64,000 nucleotides of DNA from Eledone cirrhosa (Eukaryota). The stretch spans positions 105,214,001 through 105,278,000 of the forward strand of contig OZ024740.1 of assembly GCA_964016885.1 (NCBI GenBank). Direction: 5' to 3'. This document shows positions 29,997 to 55,118 of this stretch, in pieces (the stretch's first letter is position 1; the number at the start of each line of letters is the position of its first letter). The notes beneath the pieces are model-generated. The model saw only the letters and a list, made by a program, of their open reading frames with translations, did not search any database and was not told the DNA's origin. Made by a program: the position numbers and the translations under genes.

Positions 29997-32900
29997 ATAT
30001 ATACATACATATACATACATACATATATATACACATACATACATACATATATATATATATAGACATATACATACATACATATATATATATATAGACATAT
30101 ACATACATACATATATATATATATACACATATACATACATACATATATATATATATACACATATACATACATACATATATATATATATACACATATACAT
30201 ACATACATATATATATATATACACATATACATACATACATATATATATATATACACATATACATACATACATATATATATATATACACATATACATACAT
30301 ACATATATATATATATACACATATACATACATACATATATATATATATACACATATACATACATACATATATATATATATACACATATACATACATACAT
30401 ATATATATATATACACATATACATACATACATATATATATATATACACATATACATACATACATATATATATATATACACATATACATACATACATATAT
30501 ATATATATACACACATATACATACATACATATATATATATATACACATATACATACATACATATATATATATATACACATATACATACATACATATATAT
30601 ATATATACACATATACATACACATATATATATATATACACATATACATACATACATATATATATATACACATATACATACATACATATATATATATATAC
30701 ACATATACATACATACATATATATATATATACACATATACATACATACATATATATATATATACACATATACATACATACATATATATATATATACACAT
30801 ATACATACATACATATATATATATATACACATATACATACATACATATATATATATATACACATATACATACATACATATATATATATATACACATATAC
30901 ATACATACATATATATATATATACACATATACATACATACATACATATATATATACACATATACATACATACATACATATATATATATATACACATATAC
31001 ATACATACATATATATATATATACACATATACATACATACATATATATATATATACACATATACATACATACATATATATATATATACACATATACATAC
31101 ATACATATATATATATATACACATATACATACATACATATATATATATATACACATATATATATATATACACATATACATACATACATATATATATACAC
31201 ATATACATACATACATATATATATACACATATACATACATACATATATATATATATACACATATACATACATACATATATATATATATACACATATACAT
31301 ACATACATATATATATATATACACATATACATACATACATATATATATATATACACATATACATACATACATATATATATATATACACATATACATACAT
31401 ACATATATATATATATACACATATACATACATACATATATATATATATACACATATACATACATACATATATATATATATACACATATACATACATACAT
31501 ATATACATATATACACATATACATACATACATATATATATATATACACATATACATACATACATATATATATATATATACACATATACATACATACATAT
31601 ATATATATATATACACATATACATACATACATATATATATATATATACACATATACATACATACATATATATATATATATACACATATACATACATACAT
31701 ATATATATATATATACACATATACATACATACATATATATATATATATACACATATACATACATACATATATATATATATACACATATACATACATACAT
31801 ATATATATATATATACACATATACATACATACATATATATATATATATATATACACATATACATACATACATATATATATATATATATACACATATACAT
31901 ACATACATATATATATATATATATATACACATATACATACATACATATATATATATATATATATATACACATATACATACATACATATATATATATATAT
32001 ATATACACATATACATACATACATATATATATATATATATATATATACACATATACATACATACATATATATATATATATATATACACATATACATACAT
32101 ACATATATATATATATATATATACACATATACATACATACATATATATATATATATATATATATACACATATACATACATACATATATATATATATATAT
32201 ACACATATACATACATACATATATATATATATACACATATACATATACATACATATATATATATATATACACATATACATACATACATATATATATATAT
32301 ATATATACACATATACATACATACATATATATATATATATATATACACATATACATACATACATATATATATATATATATATACACATATACATACATAC
32401 ATATATATATATATATACACATATACATACATACATATATATATATATATACACATATACATACATACATATATATATATATACACATATACATACATAT
32501 ATATATATATACACATATACATACATACATATATATATATATATACACATATACATACATACATATATATATATATATACACATACATACATATATATAT
32601 ATATACACATACATACATACATATATATATATATATACACATATACATACATATATATATATATATATATACACATATACATACATACATATATATATAT
32701 ATATACACATATACATACATACATATATATATATATATACACATATACATACATACATATATATATATATATACACATATACATACATACATATATATAT
32801 ATATATACACATATACATACATATATATATATATATACACATATACATACATACATATATATATATATATACACATATACATACATACATATATATATAT

Positions 32901-33367
32901 ATATACACATACATACATATATATATATATATACACATATACATACATACATATATATATATATATACACATATACATACATACATATATATATATATAT
33001 ACACATATACATACATACATATATATATATATATACACATATACATACATACATATATATATATATATACACATATACATACATACATATATATATATAT
33101 ATACACATATACATACATACATATATATATATATATACACATATACATACATACATATATATATATATATACACATATACATACATACATATATATATAT
33201 ATATATACACATATACATACATACATATATATATATATATACACATATACATACATACATATATATATATATATACACATATACATACATACATACATAT
33301 ATATATATACACATATACATACATACATATATATATATACACATATACATACATACATATATATATA
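29997..33367. repeat. ~3.4-kb array, unit ~CACATATACATACATACA(TA)n
   Basis: Seen directly. Confidence 0.97.
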
Positions 33368-33973
33368 TGGTGGCTGCCAACTCGTTTTCGAGTATGGCCA
33401 CTACTTTATATCCATGTAGGAGAACTACCAATGCGCTGAACGAGTGTGACTTTTTAGTCCAGCCAGCGACTTGAAAACTCTGGTACAAACACTACACCCG
33501 TGACAATTATTGACACATAGTGCTGGGCCCATGGTACCATGTGACGACAAGTGCAGAGAGATCTCCAGATATAAAGCAATGCCTGTGCTGTGAAGCTTTT
33601 ATAGTGAGCAAAGGCACTGCACAAAGCCAGTCCCACTCTCTTAACCAAGATGATATTTACCAAAAAGAAGAACAATTCAACATCATTGGATACCATCAGG
33701 GTTGCAGGTGTTATATCAGAGTTTTCCTTCTCCTAGAATTCTGCCTTGACAAAGGCTAAGGGGTCATCTCTCCCTGTGATTTTGGATGGCCATTGACTCT
33801 TAAGAGCTCCTTTGCCCTTTGACAGGTTTTGTTTTTAGTCCTGCAGGATGTCCAAAGTCACCCTCCTCACCAAGAAACCTTGGTGGGGTTGCCAGTTTAG
33901 TCGCCAACGACCCGACCATGAGACAGGTTGTACTGGGATACATGTTACCAGTAGCACCAACTGGTGACCTGAC
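33368..33973 (-). mobile_element. Non-autonomous RTE-derived element, copy 2 (full length, 606 bp)
   Basis: 5' part has RTE-5'UTR-like motifs (gcgactaaactggcaacccc; ctaggagaaggaaaactctga). 3' part encodes [22 protein letters not shown], like the last zinc finger of the RTE LINE at 40090-40160. Terminal hairpin gtggccatactcg-aaaa-cgagttggcagccac. Confidence 0.9.
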
Positions 33974-50781: not shown

Positions 50782-53700
50782 TATATATATATATATATAT
50801 ACATATATATACATATATATATATACATATATATATACATATATATATATATATATATATATATATATACATATATATACATATACATACATATATATAT
50901 ATACATACATATATATATATACATATATACATACATATATACACATATACATACATATATATATATACATACATATATACATACATATATATATATACAT
51001 ATATACATACATATATATATATACATACATATATATATATACATACATATATATATATACATATATACATACATATATATATATACATATATACATACAT
51101 ATATATATATATACATATATACATACATATATATATATATACATATATACATACATATATATATATATACATATATACATACATATATATACATATATAC
51201 ATATATATATATACATATATACATACATATATACATACATATATACATATACATATATACATACATATATATATATACATATATACATACATATATATAT
51301 ATACATATATACATACATATATATATATACATATATACATACATATATATATATACATATATACATACATATATATATATACATATATACATACATATAT
51401 ATATATACATATATACATACATATATATATATACATATATACATACATATATATATATACATATATACATACATATATATATATACATATATACATACAT
51501 ATATATATATACATATATACATACATATATATATATACATATATACATACATATATATATATACATATATACATACATATATATACATACATATATACAT
51601 ATACATATATATACATACATATATACATATACATATATACATACATATATATATATACATATATACATACATATATATATATACATATATACATACATAT
51701 ATATATATACATATATACATACATATATATATATACATATATACATACATATATATATACACATATATATATACATATATACATACATATATATATACAT
51801 ATATACATATGTATATATATACATATATACATATGTATATATATACATATATACATACATATATATATATACATATATACATACATATATATATATACAT
51901 ATATACATACATATATATATATACATATATACATACATATATATATACATATATATATACATATATACATACATATATATATATACATATATATATACAT
52001 ACATATATACATACATATATACATACATATATATATACATACATATATACATACATATATATATACATACATATATACATACATATATATATATACATAT
52101 ATACATACATATATATATATACATATATACATACATATATATACATATATACATACATATATATATATACATATATACATACATATATATATATACATAT
52201 ATACATACATATATATATATACATATATATATATACATATATACATACATATATATATATACATATATATATATACATATATACATACATATATATATAT
52301 ACATATATACATATACATATATACATACATATATATATATACATATATACATATACATATATACATATACATATATACATACATATATATATATACATAT
52401 ATACATACATATATACATACATATATATATATACATATATACATACATATATATATATACATATATACATACATATATATATATACATATATACATACAT
52501 ATATATATATACATATATACATACATATATATATATACATATATACATACATATATATATATACATATATACATACATATATATATATACATATATACAT
52601 ACATATATATATACATATATACATACATATACATATATACATACATATATATATATACATATATACATACATATATATATATACATATATACATACATAT
52701 ACATATATACATACATATATATATATACATATATACATACATATACATATATACATATATACATACATATACATATATACATACATACATATACATATAT
52801 ACATACATATATATATATACATATATACATACATATATATATATACATATATACATACATATATATATATACATACATATATATATATACATACATATAT
52901 ATATATACATATATACATACATATATATATATACATATATACATACATATATATACATACATATATATATATACATATATACATATACATATATACATAT
53001 ATACATATACATATATACATACATATATATATATACATATATACATATACATATATACATATACATATATACATACATATATATATATACATATATACAT
53101 ACATATATACATACATATATATATACATATATACATACATATATATATACATATATACATACATATATATATATACATATATACATACATATATATATAT
53201 ACATATATACATACATATATATATATACATATATACATACATATATATATATACATATATACATACATATATATATATACATATATACATACATATATAT
53301 ATATACATATATACATACATATATATATATACATATATACATACATATATATATATACATATATACATACATATACATATATACATACATATATATATAT
53401 ACATACATATATATATATACATATATACATACATATACATATATACATACATATATATATATACATATATACATACATATACATATATACATATATACAT
53501 ACATATACATATATACATACATATACATATATACATATATACATACATATACATATATACATACATACATATACATATATACATACATATATATATATAC
53601 ATACATATATACATATACATACATATATATATATACATATATACATACATATATATATATACATACATATATATATATACATATATACATACATATATAT

Positions 53701-54525
53701 ATATACATATATACATACATATATATATATACATACATATATATATATACATATATACATACATATATATATATACATATATACATACATATATATATAT
53801 ACATACATATATATATATACATATATACATACATATATATATATACATATATACATACATATATATATATACATATATACATACATATATATATATACAT
53901 ATATACATACATATATATATATACATATATACATACATATATATATATACATATATACATACATATATATATATACATATATACATATATATATATATAC
54001 ATATATACATATATATATATACATATATACATACATATATATATACATACATATATACATACATATATATATATATACATACATATATATATATACATAT
54101 ATACATACATATATATATATACATACATACATATATATACATACATATATATACATATATACATACATATATATATATACATACATACATATATATACAT
54201 ATATACATACATATATATATATACATACATACATATATATACATACATACATATATATACATACATATATATATATATATACATACATATATATACATAC
54301 ATACATACATATACATACATACATATATATATATATACATATATACATACATATATATATATACATATATACATACATATATACATATATATATATATAT
54401 ACATATATACATACATATATATACATATATATATATATACATATATACATACATATATATACATACATATATATACATACATACATACACATACATACAT
54501 ACATACATACATACATACATATATA
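50782..54525. repeat. ~3.7-kb array, unit ~TACATATATACATACA(TA)n
   Basis: Seen directly. Confidence 0.97.
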
Positions 54526-55118
54526 CGGTGGCTGCCAACTCGTTTTCGAGTACGGCCACTACTTTATATCCATGTAGGAGAAACCCTACCGATACGCTGA
54601 ACGAGTGTGACTTTTTAGTCCAGCCAGCGACTTGAAAACTCTGGTACAAACACTACACTTGTGACAATTATTGACATATAGTGCTGGGCCCATAGTACCA
54701 TGTGATGACAAGTGCAGAGAGATCTCCAGATATAAAGCAATGCCTGTGCCGTGAAGCTTTTATAGTGGGCAAAGGCACTGCACAAAGCCAGTCCCACTCT
54801 CTTAACCAAGATGATATTTACCAAAAAGAAGAACAAGTCAACATCATTGGACACCATCAGAGTTGCAGGTGTTATATAAGAGTTTTCCTTCTCCTAGAAT
54901 TCTGCCTTGACAAAAGGCTAAGGGGTCATCTCTCCCGGTGATTTTGGATGGCCATCGACTCTTAAGAGCTCCTTTGCCCTTTGACAGGTTTTGTTTTTAG
55001 TCCTGCAGGATGTCCAAAGTCACCCTCCTCACCAAGAAACCTTAGTGGGGTTGCCAGTTTAGTCGCCAACGACCCGACCATGAGACAGGTTGTACTGGGA
55101 TACATGTTACCAGTAGCA
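54526..55118 (-). mobile_element. Non-autonomous RTE-derived element, copy 4 (near full length)
   Basis: Nearly identical to 33368-33957. Confidence 0.9.

What the first reader, a model, noticed from the sequence alone, without database searches (positions are those of the whole stretch)
29997..55118. Every RTE-family copy with an intact 3' hairpin is followed by a multi-kb TATG/TA array
Seen: the terminal hairpin TGGCC(A/G)TACTCG-nnnn-CGAG..GGCAGCCA occurs four times on the minus strand (33368, 37821, 39958, 54526). Each is followed at once by an array of about 3.4, 3.8, 1.7 and 3.7 kb. Copy 1 (18455), which lacks the hairpin, has no array on its 3' side. From 42690 down to 29997 the LINE, copy 3 and copy 2 form a same-orientation chain separated only by arrays. 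Known: RTE elements end in short tandem-repeat tails made by slippage during target-primed reverse transcription. Inference: the family may seed or synthesise long simple-repeat tails and then insert into them, a self-reinforcing retroelement-microsatellite system. Preferential insertion into pre-existing arrays is an equally open explanation.
Basis: partly seen in the sequence, partly recalled or inferred. Interest (0 to 1): 0.75.

Follow-up and report, generated by a model that had tools for sequence, protein, structure and literature searches.

The report
Repeat-targeting retroposons exporting edited repeat arrays
These jumping-gene copies have TA/TATG repeat DNA on both sides, likely because they insert into repeats already there rather than building long tails; but elsewhere in the genome one two-copy chain, with 1.3 kb of repeat between the copies, sits at eight separate sites and shows one-way A-to-G changes, likely from RNA editing, which would let the element spread and rewrite its own target.

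Summary
The four hairpins and their 1.7-3.8 kb arrays are real, but the arrays are not tails. The element is a young 611-bp bipartite non-autonomous RTE-type retroposon with a related 5.5-kb LINE. At 37 of 39 other copies the array lies on both sides (5' median 359 bp, 3' 118 bp, p=0.85). All 6 target-site duplications retained (5 clear, 1 loose) start at the element end. Higher-order repeat units run straight across copies 2 and 3. Kilobase arrays are common without the family (8 of 9 in random DNA). So: strand-specific insertion into existing TA/TATG microsatellites that grew at DNA level. One part of the 'self-reinforcing' idea survives by another route. Outside the window, a copy-1.3 kb array-copy dimer sits at 8 independent sites with retrotransposition hallmarks. 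Its arrays are collinear but differ by up to 87 A>G against 7-20 reverse and 0-2 T/C changes, always on the element strand, in nested lineages. The likely cause is ADAR editing of self-pairing (UA)n RNA fixed by reverse transcription. The scan already noted TATG targeting and multimer export on other DNA of this genome; edited arrays were not found in its notes or in 10 paper searches.

The parts
33369..33976 (-). Copy 2: full-length 611-bp bipartite non-autonomous RTE-type element (nt 3-611), 3' hairpin 33400-33371
   Evidence: 97.2% to a young copy; a 15-copy variant whose 14 other members are not in this chain
37822..38278 (-). Copy 3: 5'-truncated (nt 155-611), hairpin 37853-37824
   Evidence: 97.2%; carries a motif shared by 284 genomic places
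54527..55118 (-). Copy 4: nt 21-611, hairpin 54558-54529; 67-bp TG/TATG array on its 5' side (55116-55182)
   Evidence: 98.0%
18452..18934 (-). Copy 1: intact 5' end, 55 nt of internal gaps, 3' end lost (nt 1-538)
39959..42694 (-). 5'-truncated, broken copy of the related LINE (RT and C2H2 part, 3' hairpin 39990-39961), with a 214-bp foreign insert at 41882-42095
   Evidence: 96% to a full-length copy; intact relatives are single-ORF APE-RT-C2H2
29996..33368 (-). Array 3' of copy 2; 32-bp higher-order unit (G spacing 4,4,6,2,16)
   Evidence: 24-mer similarity 0.74 to the array end on the other side of copy 2
33978..37821 (-). Array 3' of copy 3 and 5' of copy 2; 26-32-bp higher-order units
   Evidence: similarity 0.92 across copy 3
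38278..39958 (-). Array 3' of the LINE and 5' of copy 3
50781..54526 (-). Array 3' of copy 4; 26-bp unit (4,8,14), continuing beyond the second LINE into 46783-47865
   Evidence: similarity 0.85 across that LINE
18930..22212 (-). 3.3-kb array 5' of copy 1; 25-bp unit; no hairpin at its far end
46783..47865 (-). 1.1-kb array 3' of an unrelated (GAT)n-tailed LINE
47866..50780 (-). Unrelated 5'-truncated RT-encoding LINE with (GAT)n tail, inserted in the same array as copy 4
   Evidence: 24 of 30 family 3' ends abut an array
24133..27735 (+). Intact 1174-aa LINE (Dong/R4-like label recalled, not tested by tree) ending at a CATA array, opposite polarity
   Evidence: 29 of 30 3' ends abut an array, 28 with C>G
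27737..29995 (-). Tandem duplication of array + tRNA-like SINE (28443-28782, 29656-29995) + array by unequal exchange
   Evidence: 664 bp identical; 994 of 1050 aligned letters match

Best explanation
These copies sit inside TA/TATG microsatellites that flank them on both sides, likely because the LINE's enzyme inserts them strand-specifically into arrays that were already there and that likely grew to kilobases by DNA-level duplication, while chain transcripts likely also carry between-copy arrays to new sites and gain A-to-G changes, likely from RNA editing. Steps: (1) shown: the element ends ...GCAGCCACC, is followed by AT at 118 of 120 junctions, and begins with its own TATG; inferred: the endonuclease nicks the CATA/TA strand, the hairpin positions reverse transcription at the element end, the RNA's terminal AU pairs with the primer, and the cDNA's 3' CATA anneals to the top-strand TATG, fixing orientation. 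(2) shown: duplications of 11-31 bp (one of 66) of target sequence, no tail between element and duplication. (3) shown: the window's arrays are 25-32-bp higher-order repeats continuous across elements, with a tandem duplication; inferred: slippage and unequal exchange in a local hot zone. (4) shown: one dimer with a 1.3-kb internal array at 8 sites with a common 3' end, variable 5' truncation and one 5' inversion, and a one-way A>G excess; inferred: read-through RNA from the upstream copy is reverse-transcribed from the downstream hairpin after ADAR editing of the self-pairing (UA)n duplex.
For: Arrays of 12 bp or more on both sides at 37 of 39 copies vs 6.8% of 10,000 random positions; 5' vs 3' p=0.85; G>C on the element strand at 37 (5') and 35 (3') of 39; same-locus flanks more alike than cross-locus (0.74 vs 0.64, p=0.003, 22 loci). 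Duplications start at offset 0 in 6 of 6 retained cases, five clear and one loose, plus offsets 1 and 0 in two more. Cross-element unit continuity 0.74, 0.92, 0.85 against 0.05-0.43 among the four 'tails'. 8 of 9 arrays of 1 kb or more in 390 kb of random DNA have no family hairpin; summed flanks on C1-C4 median 156 (n=19) vs 147 expected from target-weighted background. Unrelated LINEs and a SINE use the same arrays. Raw reads of three other samples show TATG/CATA loose ends at both element ends. Dimer: 11 junction matches, 8 independent sites; e.g. 75 A>G, 10 G>A, 0 other mismatches and 5 gaps over 1.28 kb; with symmetric scoring T/C differences 0-2; lineages share 41-45 (expected 10-14) and 58 (expected 16) derived G, one pair nested 14:1; copies lie on both genomic strands; LINE ORF singletons A>G 27 vs T>C 6, p=4e-4.
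Against: No empty allele was examined, so pre-existence rests on duplications and unit continuity. On the smaller contigs summed flanks (median 1390, n=20) exceed the background expectation (604), and 13 of 25 TATG-polar arrays abut the family vs 13 of 288 others: both fit a larger element contribution than simple targeting. Dimers truncated inside the array (2 of 8 sites plus the tandem copy) leave a ~1-kb array 5' of a single copy, so some 5' arrays are cargo, which weakens the 5'/3' symmetry argument. Most duplications lie in pure repeat and cannot reveal a short tail. In short-element bodies the A>G excess is absent or weak (3 vs 3 in 39 young copies; 28 vs 19 in 121, p=0.19). No RNA data; ADAR is inferred. 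The 39 copies are the best-scoring of 4,397 candidates, not a random draw.
Confidence: 0.75

Rival explanations
1. The element synthesises multi-kb TATG tails by slippage during target-primed reverse transcription.
For: All four hairpins in the window are followed by 1.7-3.8 kb; 42 of 42 secondary hairpin copies have a 3' array; RTE seeding of short repeats is published (PMC2887409, passages).
Against: 3' median 118 bp; 5' as long; duplications start at the element end, whereas seeded repeats lie between the two duplications (PMC2887409); one young copy has no 3' array at all (L018); each 'tail' matches the array across the same element, not the other tails; copy 2's 14 sibs have 22-2151 bp.
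Confidence: 0.03
2. Editing ratchet as the main builder: most TATG-polar arrays in the genome descend from (TA)n carried in chain or UTR transcripts, edited A-to-I, reverse-transcribed, then amplified at DNA level, and these attract the next insertion in the same orientation.
For: Dimer data; 52% of TATG-polar arrays abut the family; long arrays without the family are often pure TA (six of 934-1464 bp with 6 or fewer G and C each); edits are rarer two bases after a G (0.07 vs 0.17-0.27), which would favour a 4-base period; the LINE's 3'-UTR array varies at 6 A/G vs 1 C/T sites in 8 copies.
Against: Only one dimer family was found; a screen of 121 copies for shared rare variants showed no second exported chain; 12 of 25 polar arrays have no family neighbour; the window's arrays are regular and its copies independent.
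Confidence: 0.2
3. No enzymatic targeting: copies land at random and survive or accumulate in gene-poor, array-rich regions; the A>G pattern comes from DNA-level conversion or RT misalignment.
For: Array length is strongly regional; passive accumulation is proposed for fly Waldo-A/B (PMC3812793, passage).
Against: Copies 99.25% identical to each other are already 37 of 39 in arrays; base-exact AT junction (118 of 120); fixed polarity, opposite for the 1174-aa LINE (28 of 30); DNA mutation of (TA)n would give T>C equally and misalignment would be symmetric.
Confidence: 0.04
4. The multi-kb lengths in this window are inflated by assembly error.
For: An assembly gap lies about 29 kb left of the window; no raw read was laid across a window array.
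Against: Arrays carry site-specific, gradually changing higher-order units; dimer arrays at separate loci keep the same ~1.3-kb length and alignment.
Confidence: 0.05

Closest known systems
Bipartite non-autonomous RTE LINEs (Bov-A, RTESINE, WALLSI3; PMC5786205, passages)
   Same: 5'-UTR part plus extreme 3' end of an RTE-type LINE, no ORF, no tRNA head: nt 195-401 are 69% identical to the LINE 5' region, nt 512-539 and 580-609 match ORF end and hairpin.
   Different: Near-obligate, strand-specific placement in TA/TATG arrays; the LINE found is a relative, not the direct parent (different 5' end).
RTE-2_OV of Octopus vulgaris (PMC9115989, passages)
   Same: Single ORF APE-RT-C2H2; microsatellite in the 3' UTR.
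   Different: Target specificity not described in the passages read; sequence identity untested (no motif hit in 8 supplement files, 4 files not searched).
Microsatellite-specific non-LTR elements: Waldo (ACAY), Mino, Kibi, Koshi, Dong (PMC3812793, PMC4640811, passages)
   Same: Insertion into pre-existing microsatellites; ACAT is the complement of this target.
   Different: Those reviews place APE-type specificity in the R1 and Tx1 clades; this one has RTE architecture.
RTE microsatellite seeding in Lepidoptera (PMC2887409) and RTE insertion signature (PMC6007223; passages)
   Same: 3' terminal letters match the first letters of the duplication; repeats inside UTRs travel with the element.
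   Different: Here the flanking array lies outside or forms the duplication; kb arrays travel only as inter-copy cargo.
SaTar microsatellite-targeted TE arrays in plants (PMC5907723, abstract only)
   Same: Non-nested chains of elements separated by microsatellite.
   Different: Those are DNA transposons; no RNA step.
LINE 3' transduction; A-to-I editing of repeats in coleoids (PMC9068888, passages); edited retroelement copies fixed in genomes (recalled, no call)
   Same: Flanking sequence carried through RNA; editing directed at repeats.
   Different: Here 8-25% of array adenosines change, cumulatively, converting TA to the element's own TG/TATG target polarity.

Membership tests
RTE-clade LINE | Single ORF with APE endonuclease and RT, no ORF1 | tested here: met
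   1181 aa, PF03372 + PF00078 + C2H2; longest Met-ORF in the 5' UTR 69 aa
RTE-clade LINE | RT phylogeny groups with named RTE elements | tested here: inconclusive
   Homologues were unnamed; PDB hits only L1 and R2, distant; no tree with named RTE, Vingi not excluded; RTE label rests on architecture and recalled motifs
RTE-clade LINE | No poly(A); 3' end in short tandem repeat inside the duplication | tested here: inconclusive
   No poly(A) at 20 of 20 LINE ends; any tail is at most the AT shared with the target
Bipartite non-autonomous RTE | 5' and 3' LINE parts, internal deletion, no ORF | tested here: met
Bipartite non-autonomous RTE | No small-RNA-derived head | tested here: met
   No Rfam match at gathering score; none convincing by E-value; no tRNA
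Bipartite non-autonomous RTE | 5' HDV-like ribozyme (some RTE) | tested here: inconclusive
   No Rfam ribozyme hit; 5' 95 nt fold z -0.1, one stem with compensatory changes among 10 variants
Microsatellite-specific non-LTR retrotransposon | Target repeat on both sides, fixed strand and phase | tested here: met
   37 of 39, 14 of 14, 118 of 120; 6 of 7 listed full-length LINEs start with TATG after an array, one is cut a few bases in
Microsatellite-specific non-LTR retrotransposon | Endonuclease cleaves the target in vitro | not testable with these tools
   needs an assay
RTE microsatellite seeding (Tay 2010) | New repeat lies between the two target-site duplications | tested here: not met
   Not for 3' flanks; met only for UTR-internal and inter-copy arrays
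ADAR hyper-editing footprint | Clustered A>G on the RNA strand without T>C, in duplex-forming sequence | tested here: met
   400 nt of array fold at -202 kcal/mol
ADAR hyper-editing footprint | RNA-DNA mismatch in transcripts, ADAR dependence | not testable with these tools

The most novel reading that the evidence does not exclude
A retroposon writes its own target: chain transcripts of a microsatellite-specific RTE lineage carry self-complementary (UA)n arrays, ADAR edits them, reverse transcription fixes A>G round after round, and the resulting strand-polar TATG arrays, amplified at DNA level, recruit the next insertions (this family on one strand, a Dong-like LINE on the other). RNA editing would thereby be a heritable, genome-scale source of microsatellite sequence.
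Probability: 0.3. Interest if true: 0.85.

Novelty: new variant of a known kind. Interest (0 to 1): 0.6.

Why it matters
It corrects a tempting reading (RT-made kilobase tails). It documents a high-copy RTE-type lineage with base-exact, strand-specific microsatellite targeting, a property the reviews read give to R1 and Tx1 among APE elements; such an endonuclease is directly testable. The dimer family gives a natural record of germline A-to-I editing written into DNA over successive rounds, and a testable route by which (TA)n, over 10% of a squid genome (PMC9068888), could turn into TATG/TG repeats.

Tried and rejected
Empty alleles from reads: not obtained; the question stays open. Read depth is reduced-representation and gives no copy number; a rough 8 hairpin-bearing copies in 390 kb suggests tens of thousands. 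Ribozyme at the 5' end: Rfam blank, hand-fitting to HDV and twister layouts (recalled) failed. Tandem duplication of copies 2-4: rejected, they are 96% alike, no closer than to outside copies. Export of the window's own chain: not seen in 14 sibs of copy 2; the copy 3 motif is a 284-member subfamily mark and was not followed. G density does not fall off near junctions, so no short TATG tail is visible. In one search, 22 of 38 candidate duplications had no element start beside them and 10 of the other 16 were chain artefacts; these were dropped, and one of the 6 kept is loose (21 nt gap). In one search, L255 (different upstream array), L251 (tandem copy of L250) and L259 (same 3' flank as L258) were not counted as independent. 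LINE 5' flank lengths were wrong (reference truncated) and were replaced by reading junctions. First flank measure included element bases; one search replaces it. Paper searches without a description of RTE-clade microsatellite specificity or edited arrays; subscription papers and Repbase were not searchable.
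Full report
Setting. The window is G000:C1:105214001-105278000 of a 3.0-Gb animal genome; an octopus-like host is my inference from the repeat content and was not tested. About 34% of the window is alternating purine-pyrimidine array, against 9% and 15% in random samples of large and small contigs.

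Observation. The hairpin occurs four times on the minus strand, each followed at once by 3374, 3845, 1682 and 3747 bp of array. Copy 1 lacks it and has no 3' array, but has 3283 bp on its 5' side, and 4 of 8 arrays of 1 kb or more in the window are not 3' of a hairpin.

What the elements are. Copies 1-4 belong to a 611-bp family with at least 4,397 search candidates; the 39 best other copies are 99.25% identical. It joins a LINE 5' region to the ORF end and 3' hairpin: a bipartite non-autonomous element as described for RTE (PMC5786205, passages). The window LINE is a broken copy (96%) of a 5.5-kb family with intact 1.2-kaa APE-RT-C2H2 ORFs. Both families begin with TATG and end GCAGCCA(C/T)C. 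The LINE carries microsatellites inside both UTRs. Its placement in the RTE clade rests on architecture; no tree with named members was possible.

Tail or target. In 39 copies with 4.7 kb each side arrays of 12 bp or more lie on both sides in 37, against 6.8% of random positions. Medians are 359 bp 5' and 118 bp 3' (p=0.85); 4 of 39 have 1.7 kb or more 3'. G exceeds C on the element strand in 37 and 35 of 39. The two flanks of a locus resemble each other more than flanks of other loci (p=0.003, 22 loci). Fourteen close sibs of copy 2 repeat this: 14 of 14 both sides, medians 137 and 229. Of 120 distinct 3' junctions 118 start with A and 118 have T next. After dropping 22 candidates without an adjacent element start and 10 chain artefacts, 6 duplications with telltale letters remain (11, 11, 18, up to 31, 66 bp and one loose case); all start at the element end. 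Tay 2010 gives the test: a seeded repeat lies between the duplications; here it does not. Raw reads of three other samples show TATG/CATA at both ends and a short inter-copy spacer. No empty allele was seen.

Why the window's arrays are long. They are 25-32-bp higher-order repeats that continue across copy 2 (0.74), copy 3 (0.92) and an unrelated LINE (0.85), while the four 'tails' match each other at 0.05-0.43. A SINE-containing tandem duplication shows unequal exchange on the spot. In 390 kb of random DNA 8 of 9 arrays of 1 kb or more lack the hairpin; summed flanks follow the regional background on C1-C4 (156 vs 147) but exceed it elsewhere (1390 vs 604). The 100 kb to the left hold four arrays over 1 kb, up to 7.1 kb without a hairpin; the 100 kb to the right hold none of 500 bp. 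Other families use the same arrays: the 1174-aa LINE at 29 of 30 3' ends with opposite polarity in 28, a (GAT)n-tailed LINE at 24 of 30.

What survives of self-reinforcement. 13 of 25 TATG-polar arrays abut the family against 13 of 288 others. Prompted by an earlier scan note on multimer export, I compared two loci and found the same dimer: copy A, about 1.3 kb of array, truncated copy B with 10 private changes. Its junction occurs 11 times, 8 of them independent sites on 6 contigs, with one 3' end, 5' starts at nt 1, 24, 43, 70, 189, one 5' inversion and two truncations inside the array. The arrays align with 4-13 gaps; against the least changed copy 90-94% of G are kept and 27-110 A>G are added with 10-18 reverse and 0-3 other mismatches; shuffled controls keep 68-82%. 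With A/G and T/C scored alike, T/C differences are 0-2. Derived G are shared in lineages (41-45 vs 10-14 expected; 58 vs 16) and nested (14:1), so they accumulate over rounds. Element bodies are nearly unchanged. LINE ORF singletons show A>G 27 vs T>C 6; short-element bodies show no significant excess. DNA mutation of (TA)n would be strand-symmetric and misalignment direction-symmetric, so ADAR editing of the self-pairing RNA is the most likely cause (inference; coleoid editing of repeats: PMC9068888 passages). How much of the genome's TATG arises this way is unknown: one family was found, a screen of 121 copies showed no second, and the window's chain looks built in place.

Literature seen. 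Passages: PMC6007223, PMC5786205, PMC2887409, PMC9115989 (8 supplement files searched, 4 not), PMC4640811, PMC3812793, PMC9068888; part 1 of 3 of PMC13282606; abstracts of PMC13295347 and PMC5907723. Ten searches showed no RTE-clade microsatellite specificity and no edited arrays; closed papers, Repbase and unread supplements may hold them. The scan's own unchecked notes already report TATG targeting, the two-clade polarity, multimer export and editing marks in one cargo in this genome; none matched edited TATG arrays.

Verdict. Observation partly confirmed, tail synthesis rejected, targeting supported (0.75 with the chain-export step). New variant of a known kind; interest 0.6, driven by the edited-array result, which lies outside the window.

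Noticed in passing
L249-L259 (G000 C1, C2, C7, C9, C14, C20, C177): Dimer family carrying a 1.3-kb array with cumulative sense-strand A>G changes; source locus not identified.
   Followed up: yes
window 24133-27735 and 42888-46548: Intact and decayed Dong/R4-like LINEs; the young family ends AAACATA and abuts CATA arrays on the strand opposite to the RTE-type family (28 of 30).
   Followed up: partly
L066, about 7430-7462 (minus strand): Six GGGTTA telomere-like repeats at the 5' inversion junction of a LINE copy.
   Followed up: no
L061: 66-bp target-site duplication around a 5'-truncated LINE, copying array and unique letters.
   Followed up: partly
L050-L069: LINE subfamilies differ in 3' UTR length (251-962 bp) through internal (TG)n, (ATT)n and TATG/TG arrays; two copies are almost fully TG; the 1.4-kb 5' UTR also holds several microsatellites.
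   Followed up: partly
window 41882-42095: 214-bp (ATG)n-tailed insert inside the LINE with a short duplication on both sides.
   Followed up: no
window 22214-23450: Repeat end that abuts TA arrays at 21 of 30 copies, mostly pure TA; internal 220-bp and 111-bp tandem units; possibly a TA-inserting DNA element.
   Followed up: partly
window 33846-33976 and family 5' ends: First stem of the 5' end shows compensatory changes among subfamilies; 5' truncations recur at TGTC motifs that mimic the 5' end (nt 52, 153, 226, 462).
   Followed up: partly
window 58500-60372 and 61047-62741: TA/TAGA and TA/TAAA/CATA arrays of 1.9 and 1.7 kb beside other elements, each polar for one letter.
   Followed up: no
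L050-L069 ORFs: Singleton G>A (37) exceeds C>T (20) on the sense strand, a second asymmetry.
   Followed up: no
L229-L238 (about 29 kb left of the window): Assembly gap next to 2.4-kb and 7.1-kb arrays.
   Followed up: no
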